A stretch of DNA of 64,000 nt from Amphiscolops sp. MND2022. Its lineage: Eukaryota. Position 1 is the stretch's first letter. Each line of letters begins with the position of its first letter. The stretch covers positions 79,114,001 to 79,178,000 of the forward strand of contig OZ076409.1 in assembly GCA_964187785.1 (NCBI GenBank), given 5' to 3'. Below, in pieces: positions 17,556-56,858 of the stretch. The notes beneath the pieces were generated by a model. That model made no database searches. It saw nothing but the letters and a program-made list of their open reading frames with translations, and was not told the origin of the DNA. The position numbers and the translations under genes were made by a program.

Positions 17556-17896
17556 TTAGTCTGCGCATTTTAGTAGAAAATGTGCCCGACTATTACAGTG
17601 GGTAGTTTTTTTAGACACGAAAGGTCCACTTTTTTGTCCATTTGTTCAACAACCTCAAACCTCAACAACTTCAAACCTCAACAAATCCAACCTCAGAAGC
17701 GCGTCCAAAACGAAAAGAAAAAACAAAACAGACGTCCACAACCTCGAAAACACAATAAAGATCCCACCTTAGCCCCACTTTTTTCGGAACTATGCGACTT
17801 TTTTTTGAAGTTTTTTGGATTGCACCAGAGGGTCCCCCCTTCATTTGTTTCGATATTTTGCAACACAATGGATGTCAAAAAATCGCAAAGGGTCCC
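17553..17896 (-). mobile_element. HINE-like repeat copy 2, left part (split by Gypsy element A; right part 33803-34014)
   Basis: TTTTTAGTC...CCCGACTA end and AAGGGTCCC motifs. Resumes after the TSD and ends GCCGTTCTCGGCTTGTT at 34014, the reverse of the copy-1 start. Confidence 0.6.
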
Positions 17897-30971: not shown

Positions 30972-30978
30972 GTTTTTT
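30972..30978 (-). promoter_or_regulatory. -1 ribosomal frameshift heptamer A AAA AAC at the gag/pol junction (element A)
   Basis: gag ends CCA AAA AAC TAG. The -1 frame reads LDSPRLQFNE... without a stop into the pol ORF at 30837. Confidence 0.8.
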
Positions 30979-32077: not shown

Positions 32078-32091
32078 GGCTCCTGTCACCA
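32078..32091 (-). other. Primer-binding site of element A
   Basis: TGGTGACAGGAGCC directly after the 5' LTR end CGACA. The first 12 nt are identical in element B. Confidence 0.8.
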
Positions 32092-33802
32092 TGTCGTGAT
32101 TTTGTTCGTGTGCAAAAGATGCTACCGAACTTTCTCTAGACCTTAGTCTATTGCTTTCATGTGTATAACACATTTTGGGGCGATTTTTCCATGTTTTTAG
32201 CGGATTTTCTGCTCCTGAGTTCCATTGTAGCCCATTGGACCTTCGGTCCTCTTTGGTGAAATCTCCTTCCTTCGGGCTGGGATGTAGCCCGTTGGACCCC
32301 CGGTCCATTGTAGTAAAATTCGTTTTCCCCTGCGATTCCAGCATATATTGAATGGAAGGGAGTACAGTATCAGCTATTGCAGCTGATATTGCGTTTTGTA
32401 TTTGTGAATTTAAACTAGACTTAATTTCATTCAACCTCCTTGACATTTGGTTGGAAATTTCTTAATTGATCAATCTAGTGGTCTCTACAGTAACTTCGCT
32501 ATTCTCTCTACTATTAGTATTGAGTAAAGACCTAAAGTCTTCTCCTACTAGGTTTGGATTTTGGTGTAGTCTATTAGACCCTGAGTCCAAATTAAGTTCA
32601 CTTTCGCTTCGTTCTGCTCTTTCATCATCCCTATCATAACTTCCGAGCATTATATCAACATTCTCTACGTCGGACATGATGTCCAATTGCCTAGAACGCC
32701 TTTCTTTGGCTTTCTGTTTTCTAGTGGAAGGCATGGAGAAATCTGGTATTTTCAAATAGTCAATTGAAAACTATTTCAAACAACAGAACGTAGGCAAAAT
32801 ATTATAACAAATCAGTGATGCGAGTGTATTGCAAGTTGTATCGAGATCTATTGTTGTGTCCTTCGGACTGAAGGTCCCGGGTATATATACTTTGCACTGC
32901 ATGACACCAGTAATTTAGGCCGTCATGTTACTATTAATAGTTGATTCATTCCCGAAATAGACCCACGGGATGACGTCAATACTGCATCATTTTACATTTA
33001 TGGTTAAAAATAGCATCAAAGCCAGGTTGATAGGTTAGGCGGTCTCGCCTCAGGGTCTACTTATGAAGATTTTACAAGAATATGAGTGCATGTTTGAATG
33101 TTATGTAAAATACATGATCGTCTAAATATTACATGACATCCAGTCAAATAGACTGGTAATGTATTGATAAACAACACTAAATTGGATCTAAATTGCGTCT
33201 AAACACTTAATTCTATTTGTAAGTATTAATTTAAATCAAAAGCACTATGGCGGACCACTGGTCCATGCGTCTACAGCACTTAGTACAGCAGTTTAATGGT
33301 AACAGCAAACAATAATAGGACGGACCACCAGTCCGTGCGTCTACACTAAATGTACTTAAATACAGCGCTGTGATTGGTCAATGTATTGGATGACGCCGCG
33401 TACAGCAAGCTACAAGAAACGATCTTTTGAACTCGTTTCCTGTAACCTGCTTACTTGTGCGTTTCAATTCAATTATTAAATTACAGCACTGTTTATATTC
33501 TAACATTACAACAATTTGCCAATCTTTGACAAGTATTTCAACGCAGATAAAACTAATATTAAAACATATTAAAAGTGACTAGTAATCCGTTTAATTAATA
33601 CAAAAGTTTGTTGTAGCCAAATCGACTTAAGGTCGAATATGTGTGAAGTTAATTTACAATGCAACAGTAACATATATTGTTTGTAGGCGTTCGTACCAAT
33701 GGTCCATTGTTGATTAGATTGGTAATACTCCTGGTGGGGGGTTAAGAGCGCTATTTCCTGGTATCTGATAGAATTTTCCATCACAAGCGACAGCTTGCGA
33801 CA
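32092..33802 (-). repeat. 5' LTR of element A (1711 bp)
   Basis: Direct repeat of 17897-19606, followed by the PBS on the minus strand. Confidence 0.95.
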
Positions 33803-37631: not shown

Positions 37632-40600
37632 TTAGTTAGCGCCCAAAAGTGTTCTTTTGGCAAGCGCTATCGACAAGGCGGGCTCTTCAGACAGGAGTTC
37701 TAGGCGGGGTTCTGTTGTGCCGAAAAGTTCTTGGCGGCACGCTGCTGTAGATTGGCAGTTCATCCAGTGCTCCAAAGTTTGTGGCTCTTCTTGACATTTG
37801 GGGCAGTTGGGATCTACGTTTTCTTTCATGAGGTGGGAATAGGCTTTCAAATGGCGGCAGTGTCCAGCTCTTAATTGTGCAAGCAAGGTGGCGTCTTTTC
37901 GGTTGTCTATTTGTTCTTCATCTCTTTTTTCCGAGTATCCAGCGTAGGTCCGTTTTGTTCGGTGGTGCGACGGAGCGGGATCCCTGAAGGACCGTTTGAT
38001 ACATGATAGGGCGGCTTTCAGGCTGGTACTTTCGGGTTGTTCTGTTGTGAGTTTAGAACCGTTTTTTGCTTCTTCGTCAGCTATTTCATTTCCCTTCAGC
38101 TCGGAGTGTCCTGGTACCCACTGGACCCAGATCGTTTTTTCGCTTCTGTCCAAAAATTTCCTCAGTTCTTCGGTATCTCGGGTTTGTGAGTTCAGGGCTG
38201 TGCAGAGGGATTGGCTGTCTGTGCAAATGAGTATTTCTTTATCGTAGGGGTGGTGTTTTTCCAGGATTTCTAGGCACGACAGGAGGGCTGCCTTTTCTTC
38301 GTCGTAGGATGAAGTGATGATCCTGCCTCTTTTCCTGATTATCCTGATAACTTCTGGGTTGTAGGCACTACCTCTGGTGAAAATGGCTGCGTACCCTCCG
38401 TCTGTTGTGCCGGCAATGGCTGATCCATCTGTGTAGATAGTTAAGTTGCAATTGAACGAGTCAAGGTGAGATATAACTTCATTTAGAGTTACGTCTTTGT
38501 TTCGCCCGTTGACTGTGACGTTGGAGTGCCAATTGCTGGAGCTCAGCCATGGCGGGTGGTTCACTTGCACTGTTTGTCTTGGGTTCAGTATGGCTGTTGG
38601 AAGGGTTTTGTTGAGTTCCTCTGATTGCCTTCGCCAGCTGCTTCTTTTAAGTCTGTTTGGTGCTGGCCTGTACAGAATTTGGGTGCGTGGATGATCAGGT
38701 GGGTTTCTTGATGCTTTTTGGTATGATGAAGCTATGAGTCGGTTGCTGTGAGTGCGGTAGCTACTTATGCCACTTTCTATCTGCAGTGCCTCGATTGCAG
38801 TGGAGCTGCACTGTCCAGTTATGGCGCGGAGAGCTTTGTTCTGTGACCGCTCCAGTTTATCGAATTGTGTTTGACTCAGGTTAGGTTGCCATGCTGGTGC
38901 TGCGTAATCTAGGACACTTCTCTGGGTGGCAATGTATATTTTCCGAAGTGTCTTTTTCTGCCAACCCCAGTCACGGGTTGCTACAGCGCGTATTAAGTTC
39001 GTGCGTTTGGATACCTTTTGGGAGATTTCCTCAGCGTGGGGTGCGAAGGTGAGACCCCTGTCCATTTTAATCGCTAGGAACTTTGGAGTGGGGTTGAAGG
39101 GCATGACCTCATCATTCAGTCTCAATGTAGGTTTCCATCTGGCTTCAGTGGTCCCGGAGGCAAAGAAGGTGCCTTCGCATTTTGTTTGATTTAGGCTGAG
39201 CTTGAATTTTCTGCTCCATTCTGCCACGTGATCGATGGCTTTCTGGACTCTCTCTACGGCTTTTTCTTTGTTGTTGTCACATGACCATACTGAGAGGTCA
39301 TCTACGAAAAGGGCGTGTTCCGCGGGTAGGTTTTTCGTTACTTCGTCAATAAAAAGGAGAAACAGAAGGGGGGCTAGCACAGATCCTTGGGGAACGCCCT
39401 GTTTTATTTTGTGACTTCTACTCTTTGCTGAACCATATAACACTCTGGCTTGGCAGTTATTCAAGAAAGCGGCAATCCATCTGATGAATTTTGCTGGGAT
39501 TCCTTTCTCTGATAGTATGATCAGTAGACTCTCTCTCCATACTGTATCAAAGGCTTTTGAATAATCGAAGAGAGCCATGACTGTTCTCTTTGGCTTTTTT
39601 TTCTTGAAAACCATCGTCAATGGCTTGGGTCAGACGTGTTATTAGGTCTTCGCAGCATCGGTTTTTCCTGCCTCCGCACTGTGCATTGCTCAAGAGTCCG
39701 TTTGTTTCGACGATGTGGATGAGTCTGGTGGCAATCATTCTCTCCAATAATTTGACTAAGCATGAAGTGAGGCTGATAGGTCTGTATGAGGAAATTTCAG
39801 ATGCTGGTTTGCCCGTTTTTAGCAGGGGAATGATTGTGGCATTCTTCCATTCTTGTGGGCATACTCCTTGGTCCCAGGAAAGGTTGAACAGCGCTAACAG
39901 TTCTTCTCTTGCTTTCGGGCCAAAGGCTTTTATGAACGCGGGTGTTATTTCGTCGGGACCAGCTGCTCCATTTTTCCTCATGCTTCTGATCGCTTTGTTG
40001 AGTTCACTGGCTGAGAAGCTTTGTGTGCTGCTGTTGTCTACCGATGGGGCGTTCACGATCTTTTTTGAGAGTCTGTTTTCGTTACGTTCTTCCTTGTTAA
40101 AGGTCAATTTGCTCTGACGGGCATAATAAGCTGCGAAGGCGTCCGCTTTTTTGATGTTGCTGTGGAGGACGCGTTTGTTGACTGTCAGGGCCTCGTTTGG
40201 TTGTGAAGGTGGTGTTGTGTTGCCGATAGAATGGAAGACACGCCAAAGCTTGCTGGGGTCAGTGCTGAACTCCGTTTCTTCAATAAAAGATCTCCAGCTG
40301 CGTTGTCTTTCCGTCTCAATTTCTTGATGTACCTTTTTGCATGTTTCAATCCATTCTTGGCGGTGCGCACGTACCATCCTTCTTAGCTTGTTCCGCTGTT
40401 TGATTAGAGTTTTGATAGCCGGAGTTAGGTAGCTCTTTGTTTTCTTGCCTGGTTTTGTTCGGGGGACCGTTTGTTTTGCTGCGCTGATGACCGCCTCTTG
40501 GAAGTTCTTGATTCTCTTGATGGTGTTGTTTTCTGTACTATCTACCTTTTCTTCTAACAGTTCGCTAAAGGCAGATAGGTCAGCGTTTTTCTTCCATCTC

Positions 40601-42170
40601 GGTTGTCTCTCAAGGGGCTTCATTTTTTGCATTTACAGAGGAGTGTGGTTGTTGACGGCAAGTGGTCTGAGCCACCTATGTCTTCGTTTGTGGTCCACTG
40701 TATCCTGTTCAACCACTGCGATGGCGCCAGGAAGACGTCTGGCGTGCTCTCATTGCCGGTGGCTCGGTTGATTCTGGTTGCTGAGCCATCGTTGGCGCAG
40801 TATAAGTTGCTGTCCGATAGCCACTCTTCTATCCGTTCTCCTCTGCTATCTGGAGGTTGCTTTGGGTCCCACAAGGCTGAATGGCCATTCATATCACCAG
40901 CGATGAAACAGGATCTTGATGCTGGGATTTGATCCGTGTAGATGACTTCTTCACCATTGTCGCGGTTTGGGGCCATGTAGACGTTGCTAATTGTGAGCCA
41001 TTTTCTCTTGTCAATTCGGACTCTGAAGGAGATTGACTCAACAATACCAACAGTTTGTTTTCCCTTCGGTATCTCCGAGTATGGGATGCTGTGCTTGATT
41101 AAGCAGAGTAGTCCACCGCCATCCCCTTCTCTATCGTACCTAATGGGAGCGTAGCCTTCGAAAGTGGGCGTTTTGTTCTTTTGCTTGTACTTTGTTTCTT
41201 GAATCAGTGCTATATCGATTTGTTCTTTTTCAGCCTCTCGTTAAGCTCAGGCCATTTAGTAGACAAGCCGTCAGCGTTCCATTGGAGGATCTTTAATGAG
41301 CTTTTGACTTCTCCTTGGAAAGGTTGACTTGATTCGATGGCATCATCCAAGGTTGAGGTTGTGGATGGAACGGGGGCTGGAGGTGATGAGCACTTGTCGC
41401 ACTTCCATTCTTGTAGGCAGCAGAGGATTTCGATCTCGTCCCTGGTGTGACCCGACCTTGTGAGGCAAGACTTGTGGAAGGCGCCATCGCAGGAGGAGCA
41501 TACCAGAGGGGCTGTATTTTTTGCAATGGTCCTCTTGCATATGCTGCAGCTAGTGCGAACTTTTTTAGTTTCTGTTCGTCGCTGCAGTGAGGCAACCGTT
41601 CTCCCTGCGATTGTGAGTTTTGCGCTGGTTGAATGGGTTGGGCACATCCACTGTTCTTTACTGTATCTGCTGATTGTGCTGCAGTCTTGTTTCTTGTGGC
41701 AAGTTTGTTTGCAACTTTTGGCAGTGCATTGAAGGGCCGGCGTGCCTACTCTCAGGGGTTCGTTGCAGACTGAGCATTTGTCCCCTCTTTTCGATAGGTA
41801 CGTTGGGTCCGGGTCCTCCGGGTGTTCTCCATGTGCGTGGCATGTCCATTCTTGTGACCTGCTGTACCGCGAGAGACCACTGCATTTTTGTTGCTTGTGC
41901 GTGATGTTTCTGCAGAGCTTGCACTTGAAGTGTGGACGGTCTTCGCCAATTGGTTTTTTACATTTGTGGCACTCTGGGCCAGGGTTTAGTTCAATGTCTC
42001 CGGCCAGTACTAATAAGAGGGGAGCGTAGGCCGGTTTGGCACTCCCCTTCTTCAAAAACCCCGTTTGGTGCCAGTGTGAAGGTGAGCCTTGTCGATTTCC
42101 ACTGCTTGGCGTGTTCGTCTCCTTTTTGGGGAGTCTCTTGGTCGCCACGTTGAGGCCACGCCATTTGACC
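37632..42170 (-). pseudogene. LINE polyprotein: 2A motif, 3 PHD-like fingers, AP endonuclease, RT, RNase H, C-terminal CxxC...HxxxC; about three frameshifts
   Basis: APE: ILQWNADGL, GDMNGH, SDHLP. RT: QGSVLAP, FVDD. RNase H: YTDGS, TDSQS, WVPGH, GNEIAD. C-terminal CPKCQEEPQTLEHWMNC. Frameshifts near 41220, 40625 and 39605. Confidence 0.9.
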
Positions 42171-42173
42171 AAG
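42107..42173 (-). ncRNA. HDV-like self-cleaving ribozyme at the LINE 5' end
   Basis: CUUGGUC(P1) AAA UGGCGUG(P2) GCC(P3) UCAACGU(L3) GGC(P3') GACCAAG(P1') AGA CUCC-CCAAAAA-GGAG(P4) A CGAA(J4/2) CACGCCA(P2'). The first P1 base abuts the TSD. Confidence 0.88.
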
Positions 42174-42810
42174 ACTGTTGATGCAGAGGGAACTAATGCA
42201 CACTGCAACAAAATCGCATAAACTGCGAATCCATTTTTTTTCGTTGTAAACCTTACAGAACCCCTCTTTCAATAAATTAAATTGAGTTAAAATTGAGTTA
42301 AAATTTCTTTGAGTTGAATTGGAACATGACAAAAATTGGGGGAAAACACGACCGATACGTTTGTTTATTCATGCTTGACATAAGATGTAAAGTCTAGGCG
42401 TCCTAAACGTTACTTCTAAATCATCAAGTAATTCAATGAACTATCAACGTCAGTTAAATTTTGATGAGAAAAATCAACTTCTAGCAATGATTTTCCTTAT
42501 TCTTTATGGTTTGATCATGTAGCAAGCACTTTGATTTCAATCTCAGTTGGTGAATCCAAATGTTTCCATGTAGAAAATGACCGGAATTTTTGATAACAAA
42601 TTTATTCCACATATCGTTTGGTATCAAAAACATATGAAAGACCCAAAGTCATGATTGAAGAAAAAGGTCTATTAAAAAATTCTAACGAAAACTGAATACA
42701 TTTGGATGAGTCAAGAAGAACGTTGTCAATGTCAAGGTTACATTATTCACATTTCTAAGATTAAAATGTCTCATTTTCGTTTATCAATCATTCCAGGGGC
42801 TTCACAAACA

Positions 42811-45800
42811 TTATAAATAAGGAGTCTCTTGCTTGTTAGCATCTCCAACTTGATTATTTTTCTTTTTTCTTCGTCCCATAAAAAACAGGCCTATAGTCAT
42901 TCCAATCCACTGCAGGAACTCCAACACTGATAAAATACTCCACCCTAACCATAAACCCAGATTACCCCCAATAGTCCCGAACAAAGTAGACAAATTATAC
43001 TTGGGCGACTCTTTGATTCGCTGGTACACCAAAGTCTCGAAACTTATCTCAACTCGAGCAAAATTGTCTTCGACTCGCTCTTGCAGAATGCTCTTTGCCC
43101 ATTCGTCATTGTAAGCTTGGGACAATGCCGTGTTGATGAATTTCCTAACTTTACTTGAGTTTGATTTCTTCATCAGCGATATAAAGTGGGCCGTGTAAGC
43201 TGCTGAGGGCCATAACGCACTTGACAATGTTGACCTGTAAGATATGTCGGAACAAGAGTTTGGGCAACCACACGAACGTTGTCCTTCGTTGAACTCATCA
43301 AAAACCGAGGTTAAACAGTTGTAGTCAACATTATTCCATACGTCACAGTTGCTCTTAGCCTTTTCCTGAATATCGGAGTTATCGGTGAAATTCCAATCGA
43401 ACGTATCGGCACAGCCGCAGACTTCAGCCAGTGTCTTTTGGTAGCAAAGATATTTGCAAAACTCCAAAGTATACCGATATTTCTTGTAAATAGAATTAAG
43501 TTCCAAGAAATCGGGCCAGGTCTCGGCACAATCAGAAAAAGGGTCGCTCCGTCGTAAAACTGTTTGTTGACGAATGGAGATAGTAGTTGCAGAGCCAGCA
43601 TTAACTTGCATGCCTTTCGTCAGAAGAGGCGGGTACTCGTCCGAATTATGTAATACTACCCTGACACCCGTCTTGTGACCCATCACCCCTAAATATTCAT
43701 CAGCTTCCAAGAACAACGAAAGAGCCAGGCCATTTTCAGAACCAACTTTTGAAGTATACCTGGCCTCTCCTAGATACTGGGATTTCCCTTGGGCGTTGAT
43801 GACTGAGTTGAAACTGAAACAGTTTCCGTATGAAACGTGCTGAAACTTGTGAAACCAAGTTATGTCGCAAACTTCGCCGTCAAAAACGCACTGCACGATG
43901 AAATCTTCCTTCTGATGTCCATTTCCAACTAGCTCGTCTTGCGTGAATTTTGTAAACTTCCTGAAGTCAGAAAAGTCGGGCATTTTGGAGTTTTTATACA
44001 CTGAGTACCAGTCATACATATCAATGTCGTTGAACTGTGAGAATTCATGGCTGATTGGTGGTTGGGGCTGAGGTGAAGCTTGGTGGTTTTGATTCGGCTG
44101 TTCTTCAAAGTATTCGGTATAAGAGGGGGGTTCTGTGTTATAGTATTCTGACTCATAAGTTTCAGAGGTTCCTATAATATACAAAAGGTACTTTCTCGTG
44201 AACAAATATGCTTATAAACCAGTCAAAGTGCTGATCATTAGATTTAATTGATTTTTATTTAAGAAAAAAATCAATTGATTTCGAAATAAAAATTGAAACA
44301 TTACAAACAACATTTGCCTAACAAATTATCATGAATGACATTTTTTCAGTGTTGTAATTAGTTTCAATAGCATCACTACTGGGGGAAGAACTTTTTTACC
44401 CGTTGTAATGTTTTCCTCACTTTCACCTATTTATGTTTGAGACAACCTTCGATGGGTTTTCTAAAAACATCATTACATGGTTAATTCAAAACAAATTACC
44501 TTGATCCGGACGACCATTAGTGCCCTCACCCATCCCATCAGTTCCACCACCAACAAAATCGTAGTCACAAGAAGTCGACGAAGTTATTTCATACCCAGTG
44601 TTTTCTTGAATCTGATCCTCCGGTACTGCCTCATATGTGAAAGACCAGCCTCGGGTAGTAAGGGAAGCATCAGTTGAGAACCAAACTGTCAGTTTATTGC
44701 TTTGAGAAACAATATCTCCAAAATTACACATTTGTCCGCACATTCTCGCTGTTCCATTGAAAGTGAAGAAACTAAGAGCTTCATCAGAAGTTCCTTCTTG
44801 AATTGTCAATGCATCGCACCAGCAAAGATTCTCTTCGCACAGCTCTACCGCAAACATGTCGAAAACTATTTTTATTACGTGATTCTCTGCAGCTTCGATA
44901 AAATAATACTTGTCCAAGTTGTTCATGTAGGTGTTTGGGTAGTTCGGAGACGTCACTGTTTTCGGAATCAAGTCGGCTGTGAAGGTAAAATTACCAGAGT
45001 TTGAAGTACAACCGAATTCTTCCGACTCGTCGTATCCAGGTACTACGACACAGTCGCGGACTCCGTCGCAAACTGAAGCGCAAGTTTTTTCCTCTGGACA
45101 TTGAAGGTACGAGTCCAAACAATTATTGGTATAGTTGAAGCTCGGATACTCAGGGCATATATCTGGATTCTCGTCGGAACCATGCATACAATCGGTCCTT
45201 CCGTTGCAAACCCAGCTTCCTTGTATTGGGGAGGTTGAAAATATTTTGCACCAATGAATCAGGCAAATAAAAAAATAGAATGCTTCTTTTTGCCTGCATT
45301 TATCTACTAGAAACTTTTCATCATGATTCAGTTCAAATAAGCTTTGGAAGTTTTTAGGGTTCTTGTGATGTATTGAAGACGAAGTTTTGGATGAAACTGA
45401 AAAAGCTAAACTTTCACAACCCTAGAGGTAATACTTGCCATTCCCAAAGGAAAATAAAATATGCAGAACAAGAAGCTTTACAGATTATAGCAGACCAAGT
45501 CTGATGGTTCGTTACTGGAGAATTTTTACAGAAATTCGTTCAAAGATGGCGTTTCTCCGACACCTCAAATATAGAGCAGTGAAACATATTGACTGTCATT
45601 TTGGTTGGAAAAGTAAAATTTGGTATTCATAAAAATATTTTCAATATCCATGCCTGGGATCCAATTGTTATCATAGTCACATTGATACAGACCCAAGGAA
45701 GCAAGAGCTGCGTAGTTGCGATTTGATGGCGGGAGAATTTCTTGGTATACATAATCCGACAAAGACGCCAACTCATTGTATTTTGGAATCCTTGAAATGG

Positions 45801-46224
45801 AACTTTTTTTCACAATATTGTTATTACATATAGTGACTGCCGGAAACTCCAAAGAGTTTGACCCGGTTTCGATTGTGACTTCTACGTTGACAGGGTGAGA
45901 ATAGTAATCCTTAAAGGTCAAAACGGCTTGTAGGGTCAATATTGCTACAAAGAACAGGTAAAAAGATATCCATATCACAGAAATGAAAGCTGAATTACCC
46001 AAAATCTGAGGCATAGTGTTGCCGATGAAACTTTTCGTCATCATGGTTAGCTTCTCTGAAGTTCGCATCGTACTCAATGACTCATCGTGGTTTTGATGCT
46101 TCAAATTTGATTGCTTCATTTCCACACTACGCATATTAGATCCTGCCATATTGTCGGTCCACAAATTGGGCTTCACGAACTCTGTTGGTTCGGGTGGAGC
46201 AATCTTTGGAGAATTGGGAGACAT
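42811..46224 (-). CDS. DEG/ENaC (amiloride-sensitive channel) family protein with LDLa-LDLa-CUB in the ectodomain; exons 46224-45654, 45219-44500, 44171-42811 (883 aa)
   Basis: TM1 followed by FPAVTICNNN, YGNCFSFN, a Cys-rich thumb and TM2 GTIGGNLGLWLGWSILSVLEF. LDLa: CNGRTDCMHGSDE and CDGVRDC...DESEEFGC. CUB: TSPNYPNTY...CGQ...FSTDAS...GW. Exons sum to 2652 nt in frame with two phase-1 introns. Confidence 0.9.
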
Positions 46225-48019
46225 TCCGGCAAAATATTCAGTTATTTTTGAGCTCTAATAAGCAAGTCTCTAGGCTGCAAGAGTTTTAAGGTAATTTTGG
46301 TAATGTTTGAGAACCCGATGTTAAATAATTGAAGTTAATGATAAACCTGGGTCCAGATAATGGCGTTTGAATAATCCATATTTTTCTTTGAAAAAAATGA
46401 ATTCTGTTGTAGATTCTGTTTTGACGTCACTGATATTTTGTAACCAAGAACTGAGCAACAGGGCATTCCGGCTCTAGCATTTTTCAAAAAACTTCTAGTT
46501 TGAACCGTTCCAGTCTCTTTCCGTCAGCTGGTCAAAACGAAAAGAAACTTCAAAATCTGTAGACCAACCAAGTTATCAAAATATCGATCTAATTGAATCT
46601 TTAGACCAAGTTAACATTTTCGCCACATGGTATACTCTCTTCAAAATCCGAAACACAAATTACAGTGACTTAATTAACCTCAGCAAGGCCGAAAGTTGGA
46701 AATAACCGCTTCACGTCTAACTTCCATGCTCTGAGAAGATTCATACAAATTGCAGCAAACATTGTTACATCTGATAAATTAGCATTAAATGTGTTCCAAT
46801 TTACAAAGTAGCATTAAAGTTTCGAATTCTGAATGGTTCAAATGGAAATTTTCATGTCCGAAAAATAAAACTAGCAAGTGCTCAATGCGGATCATAAGAT
46901 CGACCATGCATGACACAAATGGAGCAAACTGTTAATGCCACGCATCTCCTCCGACCATGACTCGCACTATGCGTTTTTCCTTCATCCTCTCGCTTCAACA
47001 TGCCCAAGCAAACTTGATCAAATCTTCATATTTTTCAAGTTGGCAACACCGTATTTTGGAAAGCATGAATTTTGTAATTTTTTTTGCTAAAACATTTTAC
47101 CTTCATTCAAAGTTTTGGCAGTTCATTGCATAGAGTGATATCAAATATAAACATCGAATTGATTTCAATTGTTTAATTGTTCTTACTGTTTCCAAAAAAC
47201 TAAAAATTAGAAACACTTGCTCAAGTTTAAAAGCGAATAACAATTCTCAGAGAATTAAAAACTTCAAAATCTTAAATCATCATCGCAGATGCAAATTTGA
47301 GGATTGTAAACTTTAAGCTTGGAGAAACCGTAGCCTTGTATTTATTTTGCAATCAAATTCATTCCGAGCTTTTTATATCATTCCAATCTAATTTTTAGAA
47401 AAATGATAACATGAACGCATAAAGATAAATAGTGTTGACTAAATGAGATGCTCACCTTGCAACTTTTCTGGTTTTTCAAGAACCTTTTGAATATTTGACT
47501 GGAATGTAACAAACTGAGAAGAGTCAATAACGAAGAGTAAAGAAAAAAGTTTGAAAAATTGTTTTCAAGACCCTCACAGTGCAAAATACCTTGAAACTCT
47601 TGAGGATAATCTTGCATATTTCAGGAGCTTTTGGTAAGAATCTTGAGAAGATTTTTACCAAGAGCACCATCAATCTTCAAGATCTTGCTAAGAGTTTTAA
47701 AAAACGCCATCTTTTTTGACCAAAATGTAACGAAAGCAGTTTTTTGTATAGAAAAAACTCTTAGGAAACTCTTAGAATTACCAAGAATTGTGTCCGAAAA
47801 TGCTAGAAAATACAAAACCCAGACCGGAAAAAAAAGCAAGAGTATAACGATACTTGATTAAAATCTAGCCAATCGAAGAAAAAACAATAGCATCAAGTTT
47901 TCAGTTGTAAATTTTGAAGCCACATGATTTATAAGCACCGAAATATGAATCTAGGGAAACTCGTCGAAAAAAGATCGCCGAAAATTTTCCAGCGGAAAAC
48001 TCGTGGCAAGAACAGATAA

Positions 48020-48452
48020 TAATCTCTTTCGCATTTTTTAACATCCATTCTGTCGCGAAACATCAAAAAATTGAAGGGGGAGCTTTGGTGAATTTTATTT
48101 CGAAAAATAGTCTCACAATGCCGAAAAACGGAAAGAGGGGACCCTTTGGGATTTTTCAACATCCATTCTGTCGCATAACATCAAAAAATTGGAAGTTTTT
48201 TTCGATAAAAACTCTCATAATGCCAAAAAACGGAAAGGGGGGCCCTTTAGTCTTTCCCGGTATTGTATGTTACGCGCAAAAAGAGGAAAACTTTTTTGAT
48301 TCAGTTCGCTAGGCCAAATGATTCAATTTGGGACCATGAAATTTTGTAGAACTTTTAACAACTATTTTGGTCAGTTCGTGTGGATTGAAAACAAAATTAT
48401 AAATGCGTCACTATAATAGTCGCGTTTCACTTCATGAAGCGCTGACTAAAAA
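48020..48452 (+). mobile_element. Partial HINE-like repeat copy, flanked by TCGTCGAAAA/TTCGACGAG-rich repeat sequence
   Basis: GGGGACCCTTTGGG motifs and the end CTATAATAGTCG...AAGCGCTGACTAAAAA, as in copy 1. Confidence 0.5.
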
Positions 48453-49103
48453 ACTATATTGTGCCTAAAACTGAAAATTTCAAGCATTAATTAATGAAAA
48501 TTAATCCCTCCCTTTTAGCACTGGATAATCCGTGTGGGTAATTCGTAATTATTCGACGAGGTTGTACTCAATTATTATTCGACGAGTTAATTTTCGACCA
48601 GTTTTCCGCCCTTCAATTTCGACGATATGTTTTCGACGAGTTGCATTCGGCGAGTTGTTTTCGACGAGTTTTCCGCGTACCGCGAAATACAATTCAAATC
48701 ACTGACATGGGACCAAAAAAAGTCGGAAATTATATAAAACACTGCAATAAGGTCTAAATACACTTGGAATAAGATATAAAAAGTCAGGAATAAGATCTAA
48801 TAGCACTGCTACATCTAGAATCTCTACAAAAATATGCTCTTCTAAAAGAGACACAGTGGCTATCAAGAGACACAGTGGGACTGTGGCATTTTTCGTTGTC
48901 TGTTACAACAGAAAACTTCCAACGGAGAACCCTTCAGGGTAAACAACAACTTCTTCCTAACTGAAAATATCACAAAAACCCGATATTGTGGTTTGTTACG
49001 AAACATTTTTGTTCGAAAAAATCACACAATGCCGAACTTACCTAAAAGTGAAAACCTCCTTTATGATCACTATATCAATAAACTTAAAACATTATATTAC
49101 ACA

Positions 49104-50853
49104 TGTCATGAACATTACGGTGTGTTTTATCACCGTGTTCATTATTAAGAGTAGATTTAGATTTCGCGTTGTACTGAACTTCGGAGTAACTTTCCGGTCT
49201 CTCTCAGATCTCTCCCATCCCCGTCTAGTCTCCTGTCCTGAACCGGCCATAATAACGTTTTGAATTTGGGGCAAAACTTGGTTATTGATGGCGTCACTTA
49301 TGGCTCTCTGGATTTGAGAACTAACACTGTTCATCATCTCATCCATCTCCCTAGATATTCTAGAGTTCAGTTCACTCGATAACTTATTGATCTCAGCCTG
49401 AGAGTCTATACTCGCTGAATTTCGGTCATAACCGGCACTAGTCCCAGTTTCTGGATTTCTATGGTCAGAATGGAGATTCATTTCCTCATTTTCTAAGTTA
49501 TTACTTGCAACACTTTCTTGCCTTCTAATGGAAGTTCCATCGAGGCTTTCATCTCTCCTCATGTCACTGAAGTGGTTTTCACCTAACATTATGTCAAGGT
49601 TTTCAATGTCAGAGAGAATTTCTAATCCTCTAGATTTCCTTGCTTTCTTCTGCTTCCTTGTAGTAGGCATTAAGACTGAATCGGGTTGAAAACTTGACTT
49701 ATCAATTCCGGAAAATTAACAGTGTAACCGTTTGTATTATGAACGTCTTTATCAAAAGAGAGAAGCACAAAGTATGAGTCTTCCTGCAGGGGTATGGGTA
49801 TTTATACCCCTGAAAGTATGACACACACATTTTTACATATTTTGATCAAGACAAATCATAGAATTTTACAATCAACATAGGAAAATCCCCGACAACTACA
49901 TATTTCCGGGGGACATTTAAGGAATGGCATTCAGAGTCATCATTTTAAGTAGCAACTTCAAACAATTTATCGGTTAGACCTACTTCAAGTGTGATGTAAA
50001 CAAATACCACAGCCTGCATATTTTATGGCAATGTAAAATGAAGGCACGTGCCGGCACAAGTTTACTGCAAATTAGGCTGAAAACGGAATGTATTACTATG
50101 TGTGGAATTCTAATACTGCATCGATATTCACGAAAATACACTCGCATATCAGAGCCGGAATGGGCCCAAATCCATAACATGTACTGCGCATAGGAAAGAC
50201 ATGGTAAAAGGCCTTAACCGTCCCTTTATCCAAGTTAAAAGTATACAAACATCAAAACATCACAAACGTATTTATTTAGACTAAAAACATGCTTCTAATA
50301 ACTCGGCGTAAGTATTGATCCAATTAGGCAACAAAGGTATCATTATGCTCGAATTGGCCGAAGCCGTCCATTTGACTGGGGGACTGATATAAATTAGCAC
50401 CGCTTAGTCAATTGGCCATATCCGGCCATCATAAATAAAGCACTCATAATTAGCAAAAGGAGAGCTCTGATTGGCTAATAACTGTACTGAAAGTTACATC
50501 GCCGAGAAGGGACGTTTTCTTACTTGAACACGTTTCCTTCTCGCGATCAGCCTGCTTATTGTACGTTACCGCTTTGATTAATTTCAACACTCTATTTGCA
50601 ATACACCGAACTTCCTTTTACAAATCTCAAATCACAACCTGATTTGGATAGCTTCAAATCGTAATTTTAACAGACTAATATCACGAACAATTATATAAAA
50701 ATGCACTTGAATAAACAAAACGAATGTGATTAACTAGTAAATATAAGTTTCAGTAAGGGAAAGATTAAAACGTGGGTAGGGTACCTGGGACAATTTCTTG
50801 ATTTTCCGCTGACGTCGTTATTAATGTGCCGTCGCAGGCGGCAGGCTGCGACA
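49104..50853 (-). repeat. 3' LTR of element B (~1750 bp)
   Basis: The outer end TGTCATGAAC is confirmed by the copy at 63426. The inner end (TGCGACA, 50853) is inferred only by homology with element A, and the adjacent sequence is not a clear PPT. Confidence 0.7.
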
Positions 50854-51550
50854 CTGCGGGTGTTATGAAGAGGAATGCCCCGGCGTTGAGACCGTTCTCA
50901 TATGCTTCTCTTCTGATTTCCGTGATGTACTCAGGCTCTCCTCGCGGCTGGGACCTTGCAACATACCATTCTACTTTCTCTTTCTTTATTGCTTCTGAGG
51001 ATCTGCCACACACCATACAACCAGAATACAGTTTGTTGCTTACGTCCTCGTACGGCCTTGTGTTCTGTACGTGGAACGACGCGTGAAAACCACCCATTGT
51101 ATGCTGCATCAGGGGGGTGTCCAAACTTGGCCCTCTCTCATGGTCAGGCGGTGACATGGGTGACTCTGGCACTGGTAATAGAGTCTTGCAAACCTCTATC
51201 CTTGACTTTCCCAACTTCTTTGGGGGAGCATAACACATCTCCTGGTCAAAGTACCTGTGGTCAAATTTCGGAGTCACATCTGTTCGCATCTGGGAAGAAC
51301 TGGGGCCAGCTTCTGGTTCGTCTCCTGAAGGTTCCTCCATAGTCATTATGCAGCCCCCAATTAGCATGGGGCTGGAGGTGACTTCCCTTTCGATTCTTGC
51401 AATAAGTTGCTCCGTGTATGTGGAGCAGTCGGTTTCCCAGTCTGATGACTCTTCCTCACTGCTGGAAATGTATATCACTGACCTTTCAGAATCATCTGAG
51501 TCGTATTCCTCCAGATCGAACAATCTTCTAGCTAAGTTGTATTTGCTCAT
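50765..51550 (-). CDS. Element B sense accessory ORF3 (261 aa, intact, non-env, acidic N-terminus, CxxC)
   Basis: Open 261-aa frame homologous to element A ORF3. No signal peptide or transmembrane segment is evident. Confidence 0.8.
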   Translation of the reverse strand: MSKYNLARRLFDLEEYDSDDSERSVIYISSSEEESSDWETDCSTYTEQLIARIEREVTSSPMLIGGCIMTMEEPSGDEPEAGPSSSQMRTDVTPKFDHRYFDQEMCYAPPKKLGKSRIEVCKTLLPVPESPMSPPDHERGPSLDTPLMQHTMGGFHASFHVQNTRPYEDVSNKLYSGCMVCGRSSEAIKKEKVEWYVARSQPRGEPEYITEIRREAYENGLNAGAFLFITPAVSQPAACDGTLITTSAENQEIVPGTLPTF

Positions 51551-52433
51551 GATTACCTTTTTTGCTATTTTTGAAGCTATTCGTAGTGACTGTATTGAAG
51601 AGAAGTTTGTAGTAGAATGGATTTGTCAGTTTTAAGATTTTAGCCGAATCAGGCCTTTTCCCGAACTTTCCAGTTCGGCGGGAGAACCTTAGGTTAATCG
51701 TCCCGATTTGTCGTAAACTTTCTAAATGGAATTTTATAATTAGTCGGCAACCTTTGATAATACGGTGTTTACCCTCCATCAGCACCATCATTCTGAGAGG
51801 TGTTAATGACGCTTGAGTTGTAAACATTATCTCCACCCGTTTCAAGTGGGTAATTAAAAGTTTGCCTGAGAGCGATTAACGGCACGCGACGCGGAATTCT
51901 TTCAAAATGGCTTCAGCCAATCAGCTTTAAGCTTCGATAAATTGCAAAATTAAATAATAAAAATGGCGAAAATAATAAATCCAAATAATTCAAGATGGCG
52001 AAAATTCTAACTAAAAAGTAACTAAGGCAACTGAACGAAACGGCAAAATAAAACAGGGCAAACGGCCATAATCGGCCATTAATTAAATAGGCTGCAAATA
52101 ATGAAGATCTTTGTACACTTCGCTGGCAGACTCCATGTACAGAATAAATATGTAAATAACCAAATAATATTAGTCTGGTAAACTTTCTTCAGCCACGAAC
52201 TCCAACTTCTAAATTCTATTACCCCATTTTAATTCCAGTTCAATTCTGATTATTTTACTTCTGCTTTCTTTATCTGAAATCCTTCATCAGACAGCTTTCG
52301 CTACTCATCTTTAACTTCGCCAACAGCCTTCTTCTCTGAAGTATCCCCGGGACCCGTCCCTAATCCGGATTCGGCCAGATTCTACAACTCTGGAGCCTGA
52401 TTGGTTCGACATTGATAGGCGAAGCAGAGCAGA

Positions 52434-55400
52434 ATGTCTTCAGTTGAAGGTTGGTTTGCTTTGGTTTTGAACCTAATTTAACTTGATCAGGGCTAAATTT
52501 GTTCACAAAATGCTTCCTGTTTCCATCAGTAAACACGTGATAACACGTTTTATTCAAATTTTCAAAGTAGTTCCGGAAGTTTTCTAATGCGGTAGAATGG
52601 ATTTCTTTCAAGGAAGCTCACCGCCAAATTTCATCTCCTTCTGTTTAGAACATCAGAATGTTGATGAACCACAAGTCCAAAGCAACACTAGAACTGGCAA
52701 TCTCACTGGGCCTCCTCAACGTCCAGTTCCCATTTCAATGCCCAGCAGTGTACCTTCTCCTCCTACATTTCCCCCAGTCAGAGCTGTTCTCAGTCAAACA
52801 ATGCAGATGGCTGTTGATTCTCCTTTCAGCAATGAGAGCAACATCGATGTCACCACTTATGCGGATGAGATGGTTCAGCGAATGGAAATTTCCCAAGGAC
52901 TCAATGGTGTTGATCCTGCTCGCCACGATGAGGAAGGTCCATTTACGGCCCAAATCCCAACTGCACAGGCTACAATTCGGGATCCTGAGTTTGTACGCTC
53001 AAGCACTCCAAATCCATCCAACCAGCCTGGGGCTACAGTAGTCAGTCTTTCCTAGCTTGAATCATCCCTCTCCGTTGTGCCAAAGGCACAAGCTGACCTC
53101 CCTGAATTACAAGTCAACCAGGACCAGACTCAAGAGGTGTCTGAGGCTTCATTCCTTCAGTCTGAAGAGAATGCTTCATCCTCAGTCAATGAACCACCGC
53201 CACTCCCTGGGAGAAATGAGCGGGCCAAAGCCTCGGGTTAACATAGCGACACCAATCAAACACTGGAAAGTGTAAGTCAGTCCGAAATCCCTGCTCTGTA
53301 TGGAACAAACCCCTTTGACTCTGTCCCACTATCTGAGGGAGGTGGCGAATCTGGGTCTGAGATTCATGACCCGGGCCAACCGGGCACGTCAAGGGCAGGC
53401 CTACCGGTACAAGGTGAAGTTCTGCGGGATCTGTCAGGACGGGGTAGAGCAACCCTGAAACAGTATTTTGAGACTGAGGACCCATACACCTTCCCTGTCG
53501 GACAAAGGGTCGTTGCCTCCACTGAGCCACAAGTCTACCATTTACTCCGAGTTTTGACTGATGAGGCCATAAATATGACTTGCTCCACTATGGAGAAGAT
53601 GGTAATTGGAGCTGTCAGTGGGACACTTGCAACGGCCCCTTCACGGACTGAAAGATTTCGGTCAGTAGCTCATTCCTCTACTCCAGGTCCCAATCAATGT
53701 GTTGGGTCCAGCTCCGAAGGGATTCTGACTGGATATGGTTCAGGATCAGCATCTCAAGCTGACACGAGCATGCTTCAGAATGTCAGCGACTTCTTCAATC
53801 CTGATGAGAGTGATGGTGCCACGGAGATGGCCCTAATTAACCAAGCCTTTGGCATAACCGCTTCTGGGAGTTCTCCTCCTGCAGCACAACCAGGACAGTC
53901 ACGAGGCCTTTCTGAGGAAGGAACTGAGTCAGCCGAAAAGAGTAGCCTCGATGCCACATTGTCCGAGGTCCGTAACCGGTCTTTTGCCCAGAAGTCCCGT
54001 CAGGTAGTTGTGACAGCCAAATCTGCTAAAGCCAAAAGGGGACGAAAGCGCGGAGTACCCATGAGGGAGGAGTTTTTCTCCAAAATAAGGTGGACGAGGT
54101 CTTTCATCTCTGGGCCAACTGACCCTCTCCACAACCCACACATGGTATGGTGCCACATGTGTAAGAAAAACTTCAGCATTAAAACCAAGGGCACCGTTGA
54201 AATCTTGCGCCACCATAGAAAAGAAAAGCACCTACGTCGTGATCAAAGGTGGAGATATGAACACCTCAGAACAACTGATTCGGTGACCGGAAAGATTCAA
54301 CATCGGGTTCGTGGGAGGAATGGCATAATCCTCAATAAGAGTGAATTAGCCCATGAACTGCCTAAATTCATCCACACTGAGCTCATCGATGTAGGAGAGA
54401 GACACCCCTTTTATGAGGATTATCTGAAGGGTCATACTTCCGCACCTGTTACGCCTCAGTCGCGGTTGCGGACTCAGATTTGCCTTGTTGGAGACTTTGT
54501 CCAAAGTTCGGGAGACCTGGCTCTACTTCGTAAAATGTGGGCGAGGGCTGGCAACTATACAGGGTATCAAGCGGCCTTCCAAGGCTTCGATTGGAGCGAA
54601 GATCATATAATGGTAAGTTTATTCAACTGCTTCTCATAGAGTCATGGTTAGCATAACAGAGGGTTAGAAAAGCAGCAGCACATAGTCTTCCAATTTTGTT
54701 CCATTTCAGGCCGTCTTCCAACACATCTTCAATTGCATGATGGAAGACGTATCCAATCAGGTTGCCGCATCCCAACATTTTGGGATCGAATTTGAGAAGA
54801 GGGGGACCAATCGCTACATGTACTTCCGATTCTGGAATGGTGCCCAGCTTTGTCGGATCTTCATCTGCCGGAGTGGTCTTACCGGCACTGGGCTTAGTGA
54901 AGAACTGGGCTCTCTGTCACGGCTGTTGTCCGTCATTTCTACAACCCCCGATGTAGTCGCCATCTCAGGATGTGCCGTCGACCTGATCAGGACAGTGGAC
55001 AAACATCCCACTTACCCTCGGGGCGTGCAGAGCTGTTTCCGCTTCGAGTGCCTCAACCTCCAAACGCTGATGCACAAGATGAATTACAGTGTGTTTGGCC
55101 ACATTGACATGTTCTCGGTGCTTCAAGGCCTGCTAGTTTCACTTGGAGGATGCCTCTCAGAAGACTGGATCATTGAATCAGCTGAACTCGTTCGAGTAAG
55201 TTCACTTTGTGAATTCAGTCTGTAAGGTACTAGTGTGCAAAGATAAACTACACCAATTGGCCTCTTGATCCTAAGAGCTGTAACGTTCTAGGCGATTACA
55301 ACTTGTACACTCGAAGTGAAAAAGATACCAGATTTGTGCCGGGACCTGCTAAAGAAATGGAAGTCAATTCTGCGATACCTCTCAGTCCAATCTCGCAGAC

Positions 55401-56858
55401 AGGAAAACCAAGGAGTCCACAATAAGGTTATATCTCTTTTATGGTACTTATTTCCTTTAGGAGGAGTTCATGCTAATTGCCACCCTTTTGGTAATGTGGG
55501 TAGGGTTATTTGTCTCGTATTCCCCCGTGTCTTTCGCAGGTCCAGAGTTTTGAGTGTTCCCTTATCATGGACAATTTCTTCACCGCCAAATTAGAGCTGT
55601 TCCAGCGCCTGGTCAGCGATTGTGAGCATTTCCTATTTCGTGATAGTCACTTTGGTCAGTTGTCCTTTTAAGGACCTTTAGATTTTGTTTTTCAGACGTC
55701 ACCAGTTTCGCTATCAATCTAGCTCAAAGACGGGACGCTTCCTTCTTCCTGTGCGGAGAGATATGCAGGTACATCAATCGTCTCTGTTTTCGTGTTTTCC
55801 GACCCGACACCGTGCCATTAGACAATGCCTGGTTTCTGTTAATGGACTTCCAGCTTGGCCAAGGCACACTCATGGACGATGAAGACTTCCTGGTGCGTCT
55901 TAAGATAGCCAGCAGAGTTGCCACTGCCTGTAACCTGAAAGCAGCCGGACTCCACTTTAACAAAAAGTCCAGTAAGGCAGCCATTGCCAAAACAGCTGAA
56001 GTTGCGAAGTCAGATTTTGTGTCCAGCGCCAAGAACTTTTTCAAATTTCTGTTGTCAGAGGTCCTCCAACACACAGAGCTCACTTCTGACCTTATCAAGG
56101 GACTAGCCGCGTTCGATCCCTTTGTTTTTTTCCAAAGGCCTGTGGAAGTCGCCTTACGCCATTTCGACTATTTGTATTCGACATTCCAGTTGCGTTGCTG
56201 GGTCTCTGCATCGAATGAGTCAGTTTGCCGAGATGAATATGTGGCCTTGTTGGACTATCTCCGTACCAATCATTCCACCGAATTCGGTTCCACTAGTCAT
56301 TCTCCTGACCTCATTGACTTTTTTATGGGTTTAGATTTCCTTCAAACCCACGACCACATTTGAAACTTGTTCAAGTTGAGCTGTTTGTGTATAACATCTG
56401 TTAGCCCCCAGTATCCCCCAGTGTCTTTTGGAAAGATTGACACGAGAGGACTTCAGTCCCGTTTGACAGACGTTATCTTGCCCTGCCAGAGTTACTTGAC
56501 ATCAGTGCCTGATTCCCTGCTTGCCTGTTGCACTGAGTCCCGACTTGAGAAGTTCTGTCATTTGTCCACTTCGTTTGGACAATCAGGTTTCGCCGCCGAT
56601 TATGACCCTTGGACCTTCGTAGACGGTTTCGGCAGTTCTGCTATTTACAAGACTCTTGTGGCATCTTATCGTTCTGTTCTCGCTGGGTCAGACTTCCATT
56701 TTAGGAGTCCCACTCTTCCTGATGTTTCTTCTGTGCAAGACGCACCTGCTGTCAAGTTGCCTAGTGAAAACAAACGTAGACGGATGAAAAGGAGTTGTTC
56801 CCGTAGTAGATCCTCATCTGTCATTGAAGAATCCCCTGCTGATAGCTCTAAAAACTAA
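52434..56858 (+). pseudogene. Element B antisense spliced gene, hAT-transposase-like/BED-finger protein (1281 codons); exons 52434-52449, 52649-54612, 54710-55195, 55292-55426, 55540-55621, 55696-56858
   Basis: Five GT-AG introns; exons sum to 3846 nt in frame. Cx2Cx16Hx5H finger at 54151-54231. In-frame stops at 53053, 53239 and 56361. Confidence 0.87.

What the first reader, a model, noticed from the sequence alone, without database searches (positions are those of the whole stretch)
44500..45700. DEG/ENaC channel with LDLa-LDLa-CUB modules inside its extracellular loop
Seen: between FPAVTICNNN and the canonical remainder of the ectodomain lie two LDL-receptor class A repeats, a CUB domain and an acidic/Pro linker. 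Most of this is on one symmetric phase 1-1 exon (720 nt), consistent with exon shuffling. Established: this position corresponds to the variable finger region. CUB plus LDLa is the ectodomain of channel auxiliary subunits such as NETO and LEV-10, and nematode EGAS proteins are a precedent for extra modules in this family. Inference: a ligand- or matrix-tethered channel subtype.
Basis: partly seen in the sequence, partly recalled or inferred. Interest (0 to 1): 0.7.

Follow-up and report, generated by a model that had tools for sequence, protein, structure and literature searches.

The report
Sodium channel with built-in receptor modules
This marine-worm gene encodes a sodium-type ion channel with protein-binding modules inserted into its outer sensing region, and similar channels occur in acorn worms, sea stars and lancelets, suggesting an unstudied class of channels that may be opened by binding proteins or peptides.

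Summary
The observation largely holds. A three-exon minus-strand gene (46149–42811, about 858 aa) encodes a DEG/ENaC subunit whose Pfam ASC domain is split by an LDLa repeat, a degenerate LDLa-like repeat, a CUB domain and an acidic linker, in the finger slot where vertebrate ENaC has its GRIP domain. Unsplit homologues from acoel worms (RefSeq Symsagittifera, Convolutriloba) carry the same cassette in one chain, so the pieces very probably form one gene. Exon shuffling by exon 2 is not supported: intron 1 cuts LDLa1 in half and two close paralogues lack it. The gene is not unique. It belongs to an expanded acoel family, and LDLa arrays (with CUB, kringle, PAN, F5/8C, SRCR, TSP1) sit at the same position in hemichordate and echinoderm channels; amphioxus members carry kringle/F5/8C. 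Most acoel members have a furin-type site after the CUB; this gene's subfamily lacks it and has rewired cysteine pairs. Ten literature searches found no description of such channels. Best guess: a Ca2+-dependent protein or peptide binding cassette that controls gating (0.45). No expression or functional data exist for this gene; intron 1 needs a GC donor.

The parts
45654..46149 (-). Exon 1 (coding, from the ATG at 46149; an in-frame ATG at 46224 is an alternative start): cytoplasmic N-terminus without the HG motif, TM1, FPAVTICN motif, first finger helix, first half of LDLa1
   Evidence: ORF; Pfam ASC 16-120; hydropathy peak at aa 52-63 window starts and alignment; ATGs
45823..45846 (-). Post-TM1 FPAVTICN motif of DEG/ENaC channels (aa 102-109)
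45220..45653 (-). Intron 1 (434 nt, GC-AG, phase 1), inside LDLa1, absent from paralogues P0001 and P0002; 18-nt inverted repeats near both ends
44500..45219 (-). Exon 2 (720 nt, phase 1-1): second half of LDLa1, LDLa-like repeat, CUB, first part of linker
45155..45696 (-). LDLa1 (aa 152-187, interrupted by intron 1); cysteines 1 and 3 both lost, acidic D175, D181, E182 kept, N at 171
   Evidence: LDLa HMM 26.2 bits; alignment
45008..45121 (-). Degenerate LDLa-like repeat (aa 199-236), six cysteines conserved in the acoel family
   Evidence: 0.4 bits on LDLa HMM; conservation
44630..44989 (-). CUB domain (about aa 243-362); first cysteine pair lost, new C293 and C300 gained; Y263, E291, D301, D349 kept (recalled Ca2+-site pattern)
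   Evidence: Pfam; AlphaFold plus Foldseek; alignment
44032..44629 (-). Acidic Tyr/Pro-rich linker (aa 362-458: 20 D+E, 8 Y, 9 P, 1 K+R), interrupted by intron 2; no furin-type site
44172..44499 (-). Intron 2 (328 nt, GT-AG, phase 1); ORF ends of P0001, P0002 and P0005 suggest an intron at this position across the subfamily
42811..44171 (-). Exon 3: rest of finger, palm, beta-ball, thumb, knuckle, TM2, C-terminus and stop; 13 of the 14 core cysteines
   Evidence: Pfam ASC 128-453
42937..42945 (-). GxS selectivity-filter position in TM2 (GWS, aa 815-817)
   Evidence: alignment; alignment of homologue P0039 to human alpha-ENaC

Best explanation
The gene encodes one subunit of a trimeric DEG/ENaC-type cation channel of an acoel worm (organism group inferred from homologues). 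The LDLa / LDLa-like / CUB cassette is a folded extracellular binding unit in the finger slot, the slot that in vertebrate ENaC holds the regulatory GRIP domain. SHOWN: architecture, position, family-wide conservation, paired cysteine changes, retained acidic residues, furin-type site in most paralogues but not here. INFERRED: the cassette binds Ca2+ and a basic protein or peptide ligand (as LDLa and CUB modules do in other receptors; established knowledge, recalled); binding shifts the finger against thumb and palm and changes the open probability; paralogues differ in ligand, giving a repertoire of sensory or paracrine receptor-channels. In most paralogues a single furin cut after the CUB would loosen the cassette without releasing it, since it stays joined to TM1; this gene's subfamily uses an uncleaved version. 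Loss of the HG motif suggests it may need partner subunits.
For: ASC split at profile 120/128. In homologue P0039 the cassette replaces what is unaligned against human alpha-ENaC residues 165-276; GRIP and its polybasic sites are described in PMC8791634 (passages; residue position of GRIP recalled). AlphaFold of full-length homologue P0047: mean pLDDT 80, pTM 0.74, cassette blocks (aa 191-410) 66-95, linker 411-454 below 50; core matches ASIC/FaNaC/ENaC structures. Cysteines are lost and gained in pairs in window, P0001 and P0002, as expected for a folded unit under selection. In 58 of 58 proteins having both the FPxVTxCN motif and an LDLa hit, the first LDLa starts 39-58 residues after the motif. 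The modules found there in relatives are typical ligand-binding ones and vary widely (47 of 103 scanned relatives carry them). Acoel cell clusters called chemosensory express combinations of amiloride-sensitive channels (PMC8097308, passages; the genes are not matched to this family).
Against: No ligand, current or expression data for this gene or any member. LDLa1 has N at a usually acidic position and repeat 2 is degenerate, so classical lysine-docking may be weak. HG motif absent in 12 of 12 acoel family members with that region aligned (P0018 starts too late), and the filter has a bulky W, so the subunit may not conduct alone. Close relatives in sea urchins, sea star and Ptychodera lack modules, so the cassette is not needed for this channel clade as a whole. 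C. elegans EGAS fusions gave no currents.
Confidence: 0.45

Rival explanations
1. Protease-controlled latch, as in vertebrate ENaC: the cassette or the acidic Tyr-rich linker holds the channel shut and cleavage in the linker opens it; the modules recruit the protease or act as the inhibitory piece.
For: An RX[KR]R site lies in the CUB-to-core linker of 14 of 16 acoel homologues outside this subfamily (two of the 14 are 97% identical; one more, P0130, was dropped by the pattern but has such sites). The linker is predicted disordered and lies in the GRIP slot.
Against: 0 of 3 members of this gene's subfamily show the site (window complete; P0001 and P0002 linkers are open-ended). ENaC activation needs two cuts (PMC8791634) and no site was seen upstream of the cassette. 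Only 14 of 39 ambulacrarian modular channels have such a motif anywhere in the insert.
Confidence: 0.18
2. Built-in auxiliary subunit: the cassette does not gate the pore but localises, clusters or assembles channels through contacts with other membrane proteins (NETO or LEV-10-like role in cis).
For: CUB plus LDLa is the ectodomain type of those auxiliary proteins (recalled, not tested). The HG-less N-terminus fits a modulatory subunit.
Against: Relatives swap CUB for kringle, PAN, F5/8C, SRCR, HYR, TSP1 or ShK at the same slot, which points to varied ligands more than to one scaffold role. Domain order differs from NETO as I recall it.
Confidence: 0.15
3. Mechanical tether: the cassette anchors the channel to matrix, mucus or a neighbouring cell so that force opens it, as proposed for nematode degenerins.
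For: Modules are extracellular adhesion-type domains on a flexible linker.
Against: Acoels lack basement membranes (PMC11191258). No mechanical data.
Confidence: 0.13
4. This copy is a recent pseudogene or makes only a cassette-less product: the 434-nt segment is an unspliced mobile insertion (read-through stops at 45567-45565), or exon 2 is skipped in frame (618 aa).
For: Intron 1 needs a GC donor and an AAG acceptor, is absent from paralogues and has end inverted repeats. Phase 1-1 allows skipping.
Against: All three exons are open, all 14 core cysteines and the cassette cysteine pattern of P0001 are intact; the GC-AG join restores the paralogue sequence almost exactly. Skipping would leave half an LDLa with an unpaired cysteine. 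This rival concerns only this copy, not the family.
Confidence: 0.09

Closest known systems
Vertebrate ENaC (alpha, beta, gamma, delta; SCNN1)
   Same: Best sequence match among solved structures for homologue P0039 (human alpha-ENaC, E 2.4e-31). Same core, a regulatory insert at the same finger position, and furin-type sites there in most acoel paralogues.
   Different: The insert is LDLa/LDLa-like/CUB, not GRIP; no HG motif, no PY motif found, no furin site in this gene. [quoted passage not shown]
Acoel LDLa-LDLa-like-CUB DEG/ENaC family (e.g. XP_063722317.1 Symsagittifera roscoffensis; XP_075257925.1 and XP_075240197.1 Convolutriloba macropyga)
   Same: Same architecture and order, 30-40% identity over the whole model; one supported clade with the window gene (100/99). 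Present in RefSeq only as 'uncharacterized' or 'ENaC-like'.
   Different: The window's subfamily lost one LDLa1 and one CUB cysteine pair, gained others, lost the furin-type site, and has introns that some paralogues lack.
Modular ENaC-like channels of hemichordates, echinoderms and amphioxus (e.g. XP_070566951.1 Ptychodera, XP_006816276.1 Saccoglossus, XP_077983148.1 Glandiceps, XP_038077374.1 Patiria, XP_035696828.1 Branchiostoma)
   Same: Modules between the FPxVTxCN motif and the C-terminal core; LDLa first in ambulacrarians; ASC+LDLa+CUB in 6 of 56 hits, all hemichordate.
   Different: Longer and more varied arrays (up to about 11-12 LDLa, kringle, PAN, F5/8C, SRCR, HYR, TSP1, ShK); many keep HG; amphioxus members examined have no LDLa.
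C. elegans EGAS-1 to -4 (EGF plus ASC)
   Same: DEG/ENaC proteins fused to extracellular repeats (name confirmed in PMC10424705).
   Different: EGF repeats, nematodes; position of the repeats and relationship not tested here.
NETO / LEV-10 CUB-LDLa auxiliary subunits
   Same: Same two domain types near an ion channel (recalled).
   Different: Separate membrane proteins acting on glutamate or acetylcholine receptors; here the modules are inside the pore-forming subunit. Not tested.

Membership tests
DEG/ENaC (Pfam ASC) superfamily | ASC domain above curated cut-off | tested here: met
   55.5 and 204.3 bits against cut-off 23.6
DEG/ENaC (Pfam ASC) superfamily | Two transmembrane helices with a large extracellular loop | tested here: met
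   Hydropathy peaks near aa 52-80 and 818-837; two long terminal helices in the homologue model
DEG/ENaC (Pfam ASC) superfamily | Post-TM1 FPxVTxCN motif and conserved core cysteines | tested here: met
   Motif at aa 102; 14 core cysteines conserved across aligned homologues
DEG/ENaC (Pfam ASC) superfamily | GxS filter in TM2 | tested here: met
   GWS at aa 815-817
DEG/ENaC (Pfam ASC) superfamily | Palm/thumb/finger fold | tested here: met
   Shown for homologue P0047 (40% identical), not for the spliced window protein: Foldseek prob 1.00 to ASIC1, FaNaC, ENaC
DEG/ENaC (Pfam ASC) superfamily | Pre-TM1 HG motif (common, not universal; role recalled) | tested here: not met
   Absent in the window and the acoel family; present in P0191 and P0102
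DEG/ENaC (Pfam ASC) superfamily | Trimer, cation conduction, amiloride block | not testable with these tools
   A trimer exceeds the 1000-residue limit of the complex tool; needs electrophysiology
Vertebrate ENaC proper | GRIP domain with tandem polybasic sites | tested here: not met
   Slot filled by LDLa/CUB; no RxxR in the model
Vertebrate ENaC proper | C-terminal PY motif | tested here: not met
   No PPxY in the model's C-terminus (sequence)
Vertebrate ENaC proper | Placement inside the SCNN1 clade | not tested
   No vertebrate ENaC sequence was identified among fetched proteins
ASIC | Placement with ASICs | tested here: inconclusive
   Only one ASIC-labelled row (P0029, automatic name, long branch) in the tree; the window does not group with it; PDB sequence scores favour ENaC over ASIC1
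LDL-receptor class A repeat (repeat 1) | Profile match and acidic C-terminal Ca2+ cage | tested here: met
   Pfam at cut-off for the half repeat; 26.2 bits whole; D175, D181, E182 kept
LDL-receptor class A repeat (repeat 1) | Six cysteines | tested here: not met
   Four cysteines; first and third lost together
LDL-receptor class A repeat (repeat 2) | Profile match | tested here: not met
   No Pfam hit; 0.4 bits; LDLa-derived at best
CUB domain | Profile match and beta-sandwich fold | tested here: met
   Pfam 62.5 bits; Foldseek to neuropilin-2, C1r, MASP-1 CUB domains

The most novel reading that the evidence does not exclude
An undescribed ancient class of receptor-channels: DEG/ENaC subunits whose finger slot is a plug-in socket for protein-binding modules, directly gated by protein or peptide ligands and expanded as sensory repertoires in acoels, hemichordates, echinoderms and amphioxus. 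The first LDLa entered once in the common ancestor of acoel and ambulacrarian channels (a single clade is not rejected, p-AU 0.233), which would make it a rare genomic change bearing on the disputed position of Xenacoelomorpha and would suggest that the vertebrate GRIP domain reuses the same regulatory socket.
Probability: 0.22. Interest if true: 0.85.

Novelty: new variant of a known kind. Interest (0 to 1): 0.58.

Why it matters
Most invertebrate DEG/ENaC channels are orphans. Here the likely sensor is a separate, soluble, well-folded unit that can be expressed alone for ligand fishing and deleted or swapped in oocytes, so the question of how the finger region couples to the gate becomes directly testable. 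If the modules gate the pore, these would be ion channels with LDL-receptor-type ligand recognition, and module swapping offers a natural template for channel-based sensors. The shared insertion site across acoels and ambulacrarians is also a character for early bilaterian phylogeny. The single gene in this window is an ordinary member of its acoel family; the interest lies in the class.

Tried and rejected
Exon shuffling by exon 2: rejected (intron inside LDLa1; read-through paralogues). Pieces as separate genes: rejected (single-chain homologues). Uniqueness: rejected. GT donors for exon 1 at 45693, 45681 and 45594: lower scores and more gaps; the one at 45564 lies behind a stop. Hidden furin-site micro-exon in intron 2: no RX[KR]R in any frame. 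No whole genome is held for this window. JGI metagenome scan: 430 pattern matches, none a relative. Docking of the cassette on the channel core of homologue P0047 (three pieces of one protein, alignment not used by the tool): no answer, score 0.00, no evidence for or against. ESM Atlas: no usable hit by features; one ASC cluster by structure. Earlier findings of the scan: nothing in 4 look-ups. Literature: ten searches combining ENaC/degenerin with CUB, LDLa, LDL receptor, kringle, acoel, amphioxus, hemichordate gave no paper on this architecture, judged from listings and abstract starts. Term searches inside PMC9949801 (its 8 supplements, where long sequence lines were cut), PMC8791634, PMC9822975, PMC10507113, PMC9234716 and PMC4729200 found no mention of LDL modules; PMC9911081 has no mention of amiloride or sodium channels. 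Two ENaC evolution reviews that I recalled were not held and could mention lancelet or hemichordate inserts; subscription papers, bioRxiv supplements and InterPro were not searchable. Tree rows dropped: 35 with under 300 profile positions plus near-duplicates; the second tree used 51 hand-picked rows.

Full report
OBSERVATION. The region lies on the minus strand in AT-rich eukaryotic DNA among retroelements. Three open frames carry, in order, the N-terminal part of Pfam ASC (profile 16-120), an LDLa half-repeat plus CUB, and the rest of ASC (128-453). The best splice model is exon 1 46149-45654, exon 2 45219-44500 and exon 3 44171-42811, 858 aa. The exon 1/2 join uses a GC donor; it scored 806.1 bits on a family HMM against 780-794 for the 9 other in-frame joins listed and leaves one gap position against paralogue P0001. 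The exon-3 acceptor (four candidates within 2 bits) and the start codon (46149 or 46224) are unresolved. There is no transcript evidence for this gene.

WHAT THE CASSETTE IS. LDLa1 (aa 152-187) is real but has four cysteines; the second repeat (aa 199-236) keeps six cysteines and acidic residues yet scores 0.4 bits on an HMM of 91 non-acoel LDLa repeats, so it is degenerate. The CUB domain is confirmed by Pfam and by fold. A 97-residue linker with 20 acidic residues, 8 Tyr and 9 Pro follows. In the window gene, P0001 and P0002, LDLa1 cysteines 1 and 3 are lost together, the first CUB pair is lost together, and C293 and C300 are gained together; I read this as selection on a folded unit. Against human alpha-ENaC, homologue P0039 aligns at residues 85-164 and 277-582, so the cassette stands where ENaC has its finger insert; that this is the GRIP region is recalled, and GRIP's role is described in PMC8791634 (passages).

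ONE GENE, NOT A SHUFFLED EXON. Full-length proteins with ASC, LDLa and CUB in one chain exist: RefSeq XP_063722317.1 (Symsagittifera roscoffensis), XP_075257925.1 (Convolutriloba macropyga), and unnamed P0018, P0022, P0039, P0047, P0048, P0051-P0053. The unnamed ENA proteins appear to be plain ORF calls: the window's own entry P0003 starts inside intron 2. So P0001 and P0002, which read straight through the intron-1 position, lack that intron, and P0022 and P0039 probably have no introns in the cassette. Intron 1 cuts LDLa1 in half, so exon 2 cannot have delivered the modules. All named close homologues are acoel worms; the window is inferred to be acoel DNA.

HOW WIDESPREAD. An HMM of the C-terminal core searched against 1.84 billion representatives returned 150 best hits. 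I scanned 103 of them, mostly those of about 500 aa or more: 47 carry extracellular modules, and 11 carry ASC+LDLa+CUB, 7 of the acoel type and 4 named as Ptychodera, Saccoglossus (2) and Glandiceps. A search from the Ptychodera core gave 56 hits, 40 with LDLa and 6 with LDLa plus CUB; the LDLa bearers are hemichordates and echinoderms, amphioxus hits carry kringle and F5/8C, and sea-urchin, Capitella, Acropora and nematode hits carry none. In 58 of 58 proteins with both the FPxVTxCN motif and an LDLa hit of 12 bits or more, the first LDLa begins 39-58 residues after the motif. These samples are biased to near relatives, so absence elsewhere is not shown.

PHYLOGENY (core only, insert excluded). 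FastTree on 137 rows joins the acoel family with the deuterostome modular channels at 0.99. IQ-TREE LG+G4 on 51 chosen rows gives acoel LDLa channels 96/82, deuterostome ENaC-like channels 100/95 (ambulacrarian LDLa subclade 99/95; amphioxus with module-less ambulacrarian genes 95/90), and the two together only 75/95. One clade of all LDLa bearers is not recovered but not rejected (p-AU 0.233). A single insertion with later loss or replacement and parallel insertions at a tolerant site both remain open. No vertebrate ENaC was identified in the set.

CHANNEL FEATURES. Two TM helices, the FPxVTxCN motif, 14 core cysteines and a GWS filter are present; the pre-TM1 HG motif is absent here and across the acoel family. 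AlphaFold of P0047 (40% identical) gives mean pLDDT 80 and pTM 0.74, a confident cassette and core, and a disordered linker at 411-454; the core matches ASIC, FaNaC and ENaC structures. A furin-type RX[KR]R site lies in that linker in 14 of 16 acoel homologues outside this subfamily, but in none of window, P0001 and P0002 (the last two with incomplete linkers) and in only 14 of 39 ambulacrarian inserts at any position.

MECHANISM. Most likely (0.45) the cassette is a Ca2+-dependent binding site for a protein or peptide whose occupancy shifts the finger and so the gate. This is inferred from position, from the module types and their turnover among relatives, and from recalled properties of LDLa and CUB domains; it is not shown. 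Rivals: protease latch (0.18), built-in localising or assembly unit (0.15), mechanical tether (0.13; acoels lack basement membranes, PMC11191258, passage), and a dead or exon-skipped copy (0.09). Acoel cells called chemosensory express amiloride-sensitive channels (PMC8097308, passages), but those genes were not matched to this family.

NOVELTY. The protein is a DEG/ENaC by every sequence test but HG, and is not vertebrate ENaC. The architecture is in public databases under automatic names. Ten full-text searches (listings and abstract starts seen) and term searches inside recent DEG/ENaC phylogeny papers (PMC9949801; PMC8791634; PMC9822975; PMC10507113; PMC9234716) and genome papers (PMC4729200; PMC9911081) found no description; I saw passages only, never whole texts. 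Two reviews were not held, and subscription literature and unseen supplements could hold a mention. EGAS is the named precedent for fused repeats (PMC10424705, passages). Verdict: real, a new variant of a known kind; the gene is one ordinary member of an apparently undescribed, widespread modular class. Interest 0.58.

Noticed in passing
window 45220-45653: Intron 1 is GC-AG, gene-specific, and has 18-nt inverted repeats near both ends (45230-45247 and 45632-45649, 89%; 13-nt perfect core reached by 0 of 1000 Markov shuffles). Possibly a MITE- or Introner-type recent intron gain (cf. PMC9860276, passages, which does not mention acoels); no second copy in the window and no clear target-site duplication.
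   Followed up: partly
P0191 (XP_063721906.1, Symsagittifera roscoffensis): A second acoel channel type with two canonical LDLa repeats, no CUB, an HG motif and a long C-terminus with a PPxY-like motif; sister to the LDLa-CUB family in the tree. May be closer to the ancestral state.
   Followed up: partly
P0085, P0232, P0234-P0236 (Branchiostoma): Amphioxus ENaC-like channels carry kringle, F5/8C and link modules instead of LDLa.
   Followed up: partly
linkers of P0047, P0023, P0037, P0053: The furin-type site is followed by Asp/Tyr-rich runs that resemble tyrosine-sulfation sites (recalled pattern); after cleavage these would form a new acidic N-terminus, a possible tethered ligand.
   Followed up: no
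   Followed up: no
window 37632-42268 (-): Frameshifted non-LTR retroelement-like ORFs (PHD-like, endonuclease, reverse transcriptase, RNase H motifs by eye) begin about 540 nt downstream of the channel stop codon.
   Followed up: no
window 26373-32461 (-) and 57371-62311 (-): Gypsy-like LTR retroelement ORFs (gag, protease, RT, integrase motifs by eye); the first is broken into several frames.
   Followed up: no
window 21492-25528 (+) and 52588-56858 (+): Two related fragmented ORF sets with a zinc-finger-like motif, probably a DNA transposon family; related small ORFs recur at 17841-18575, 31913-32461 and 49092-49715, and at 19374-20036 and 50765-51625.
   Followed up: no
window 47958-48248 and 48597-48674: Short inverted and dispersed repeats upstream of the gene with relatives near 9919-10267 and 17780-17896, likely MITE-like.
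   Followed up: no
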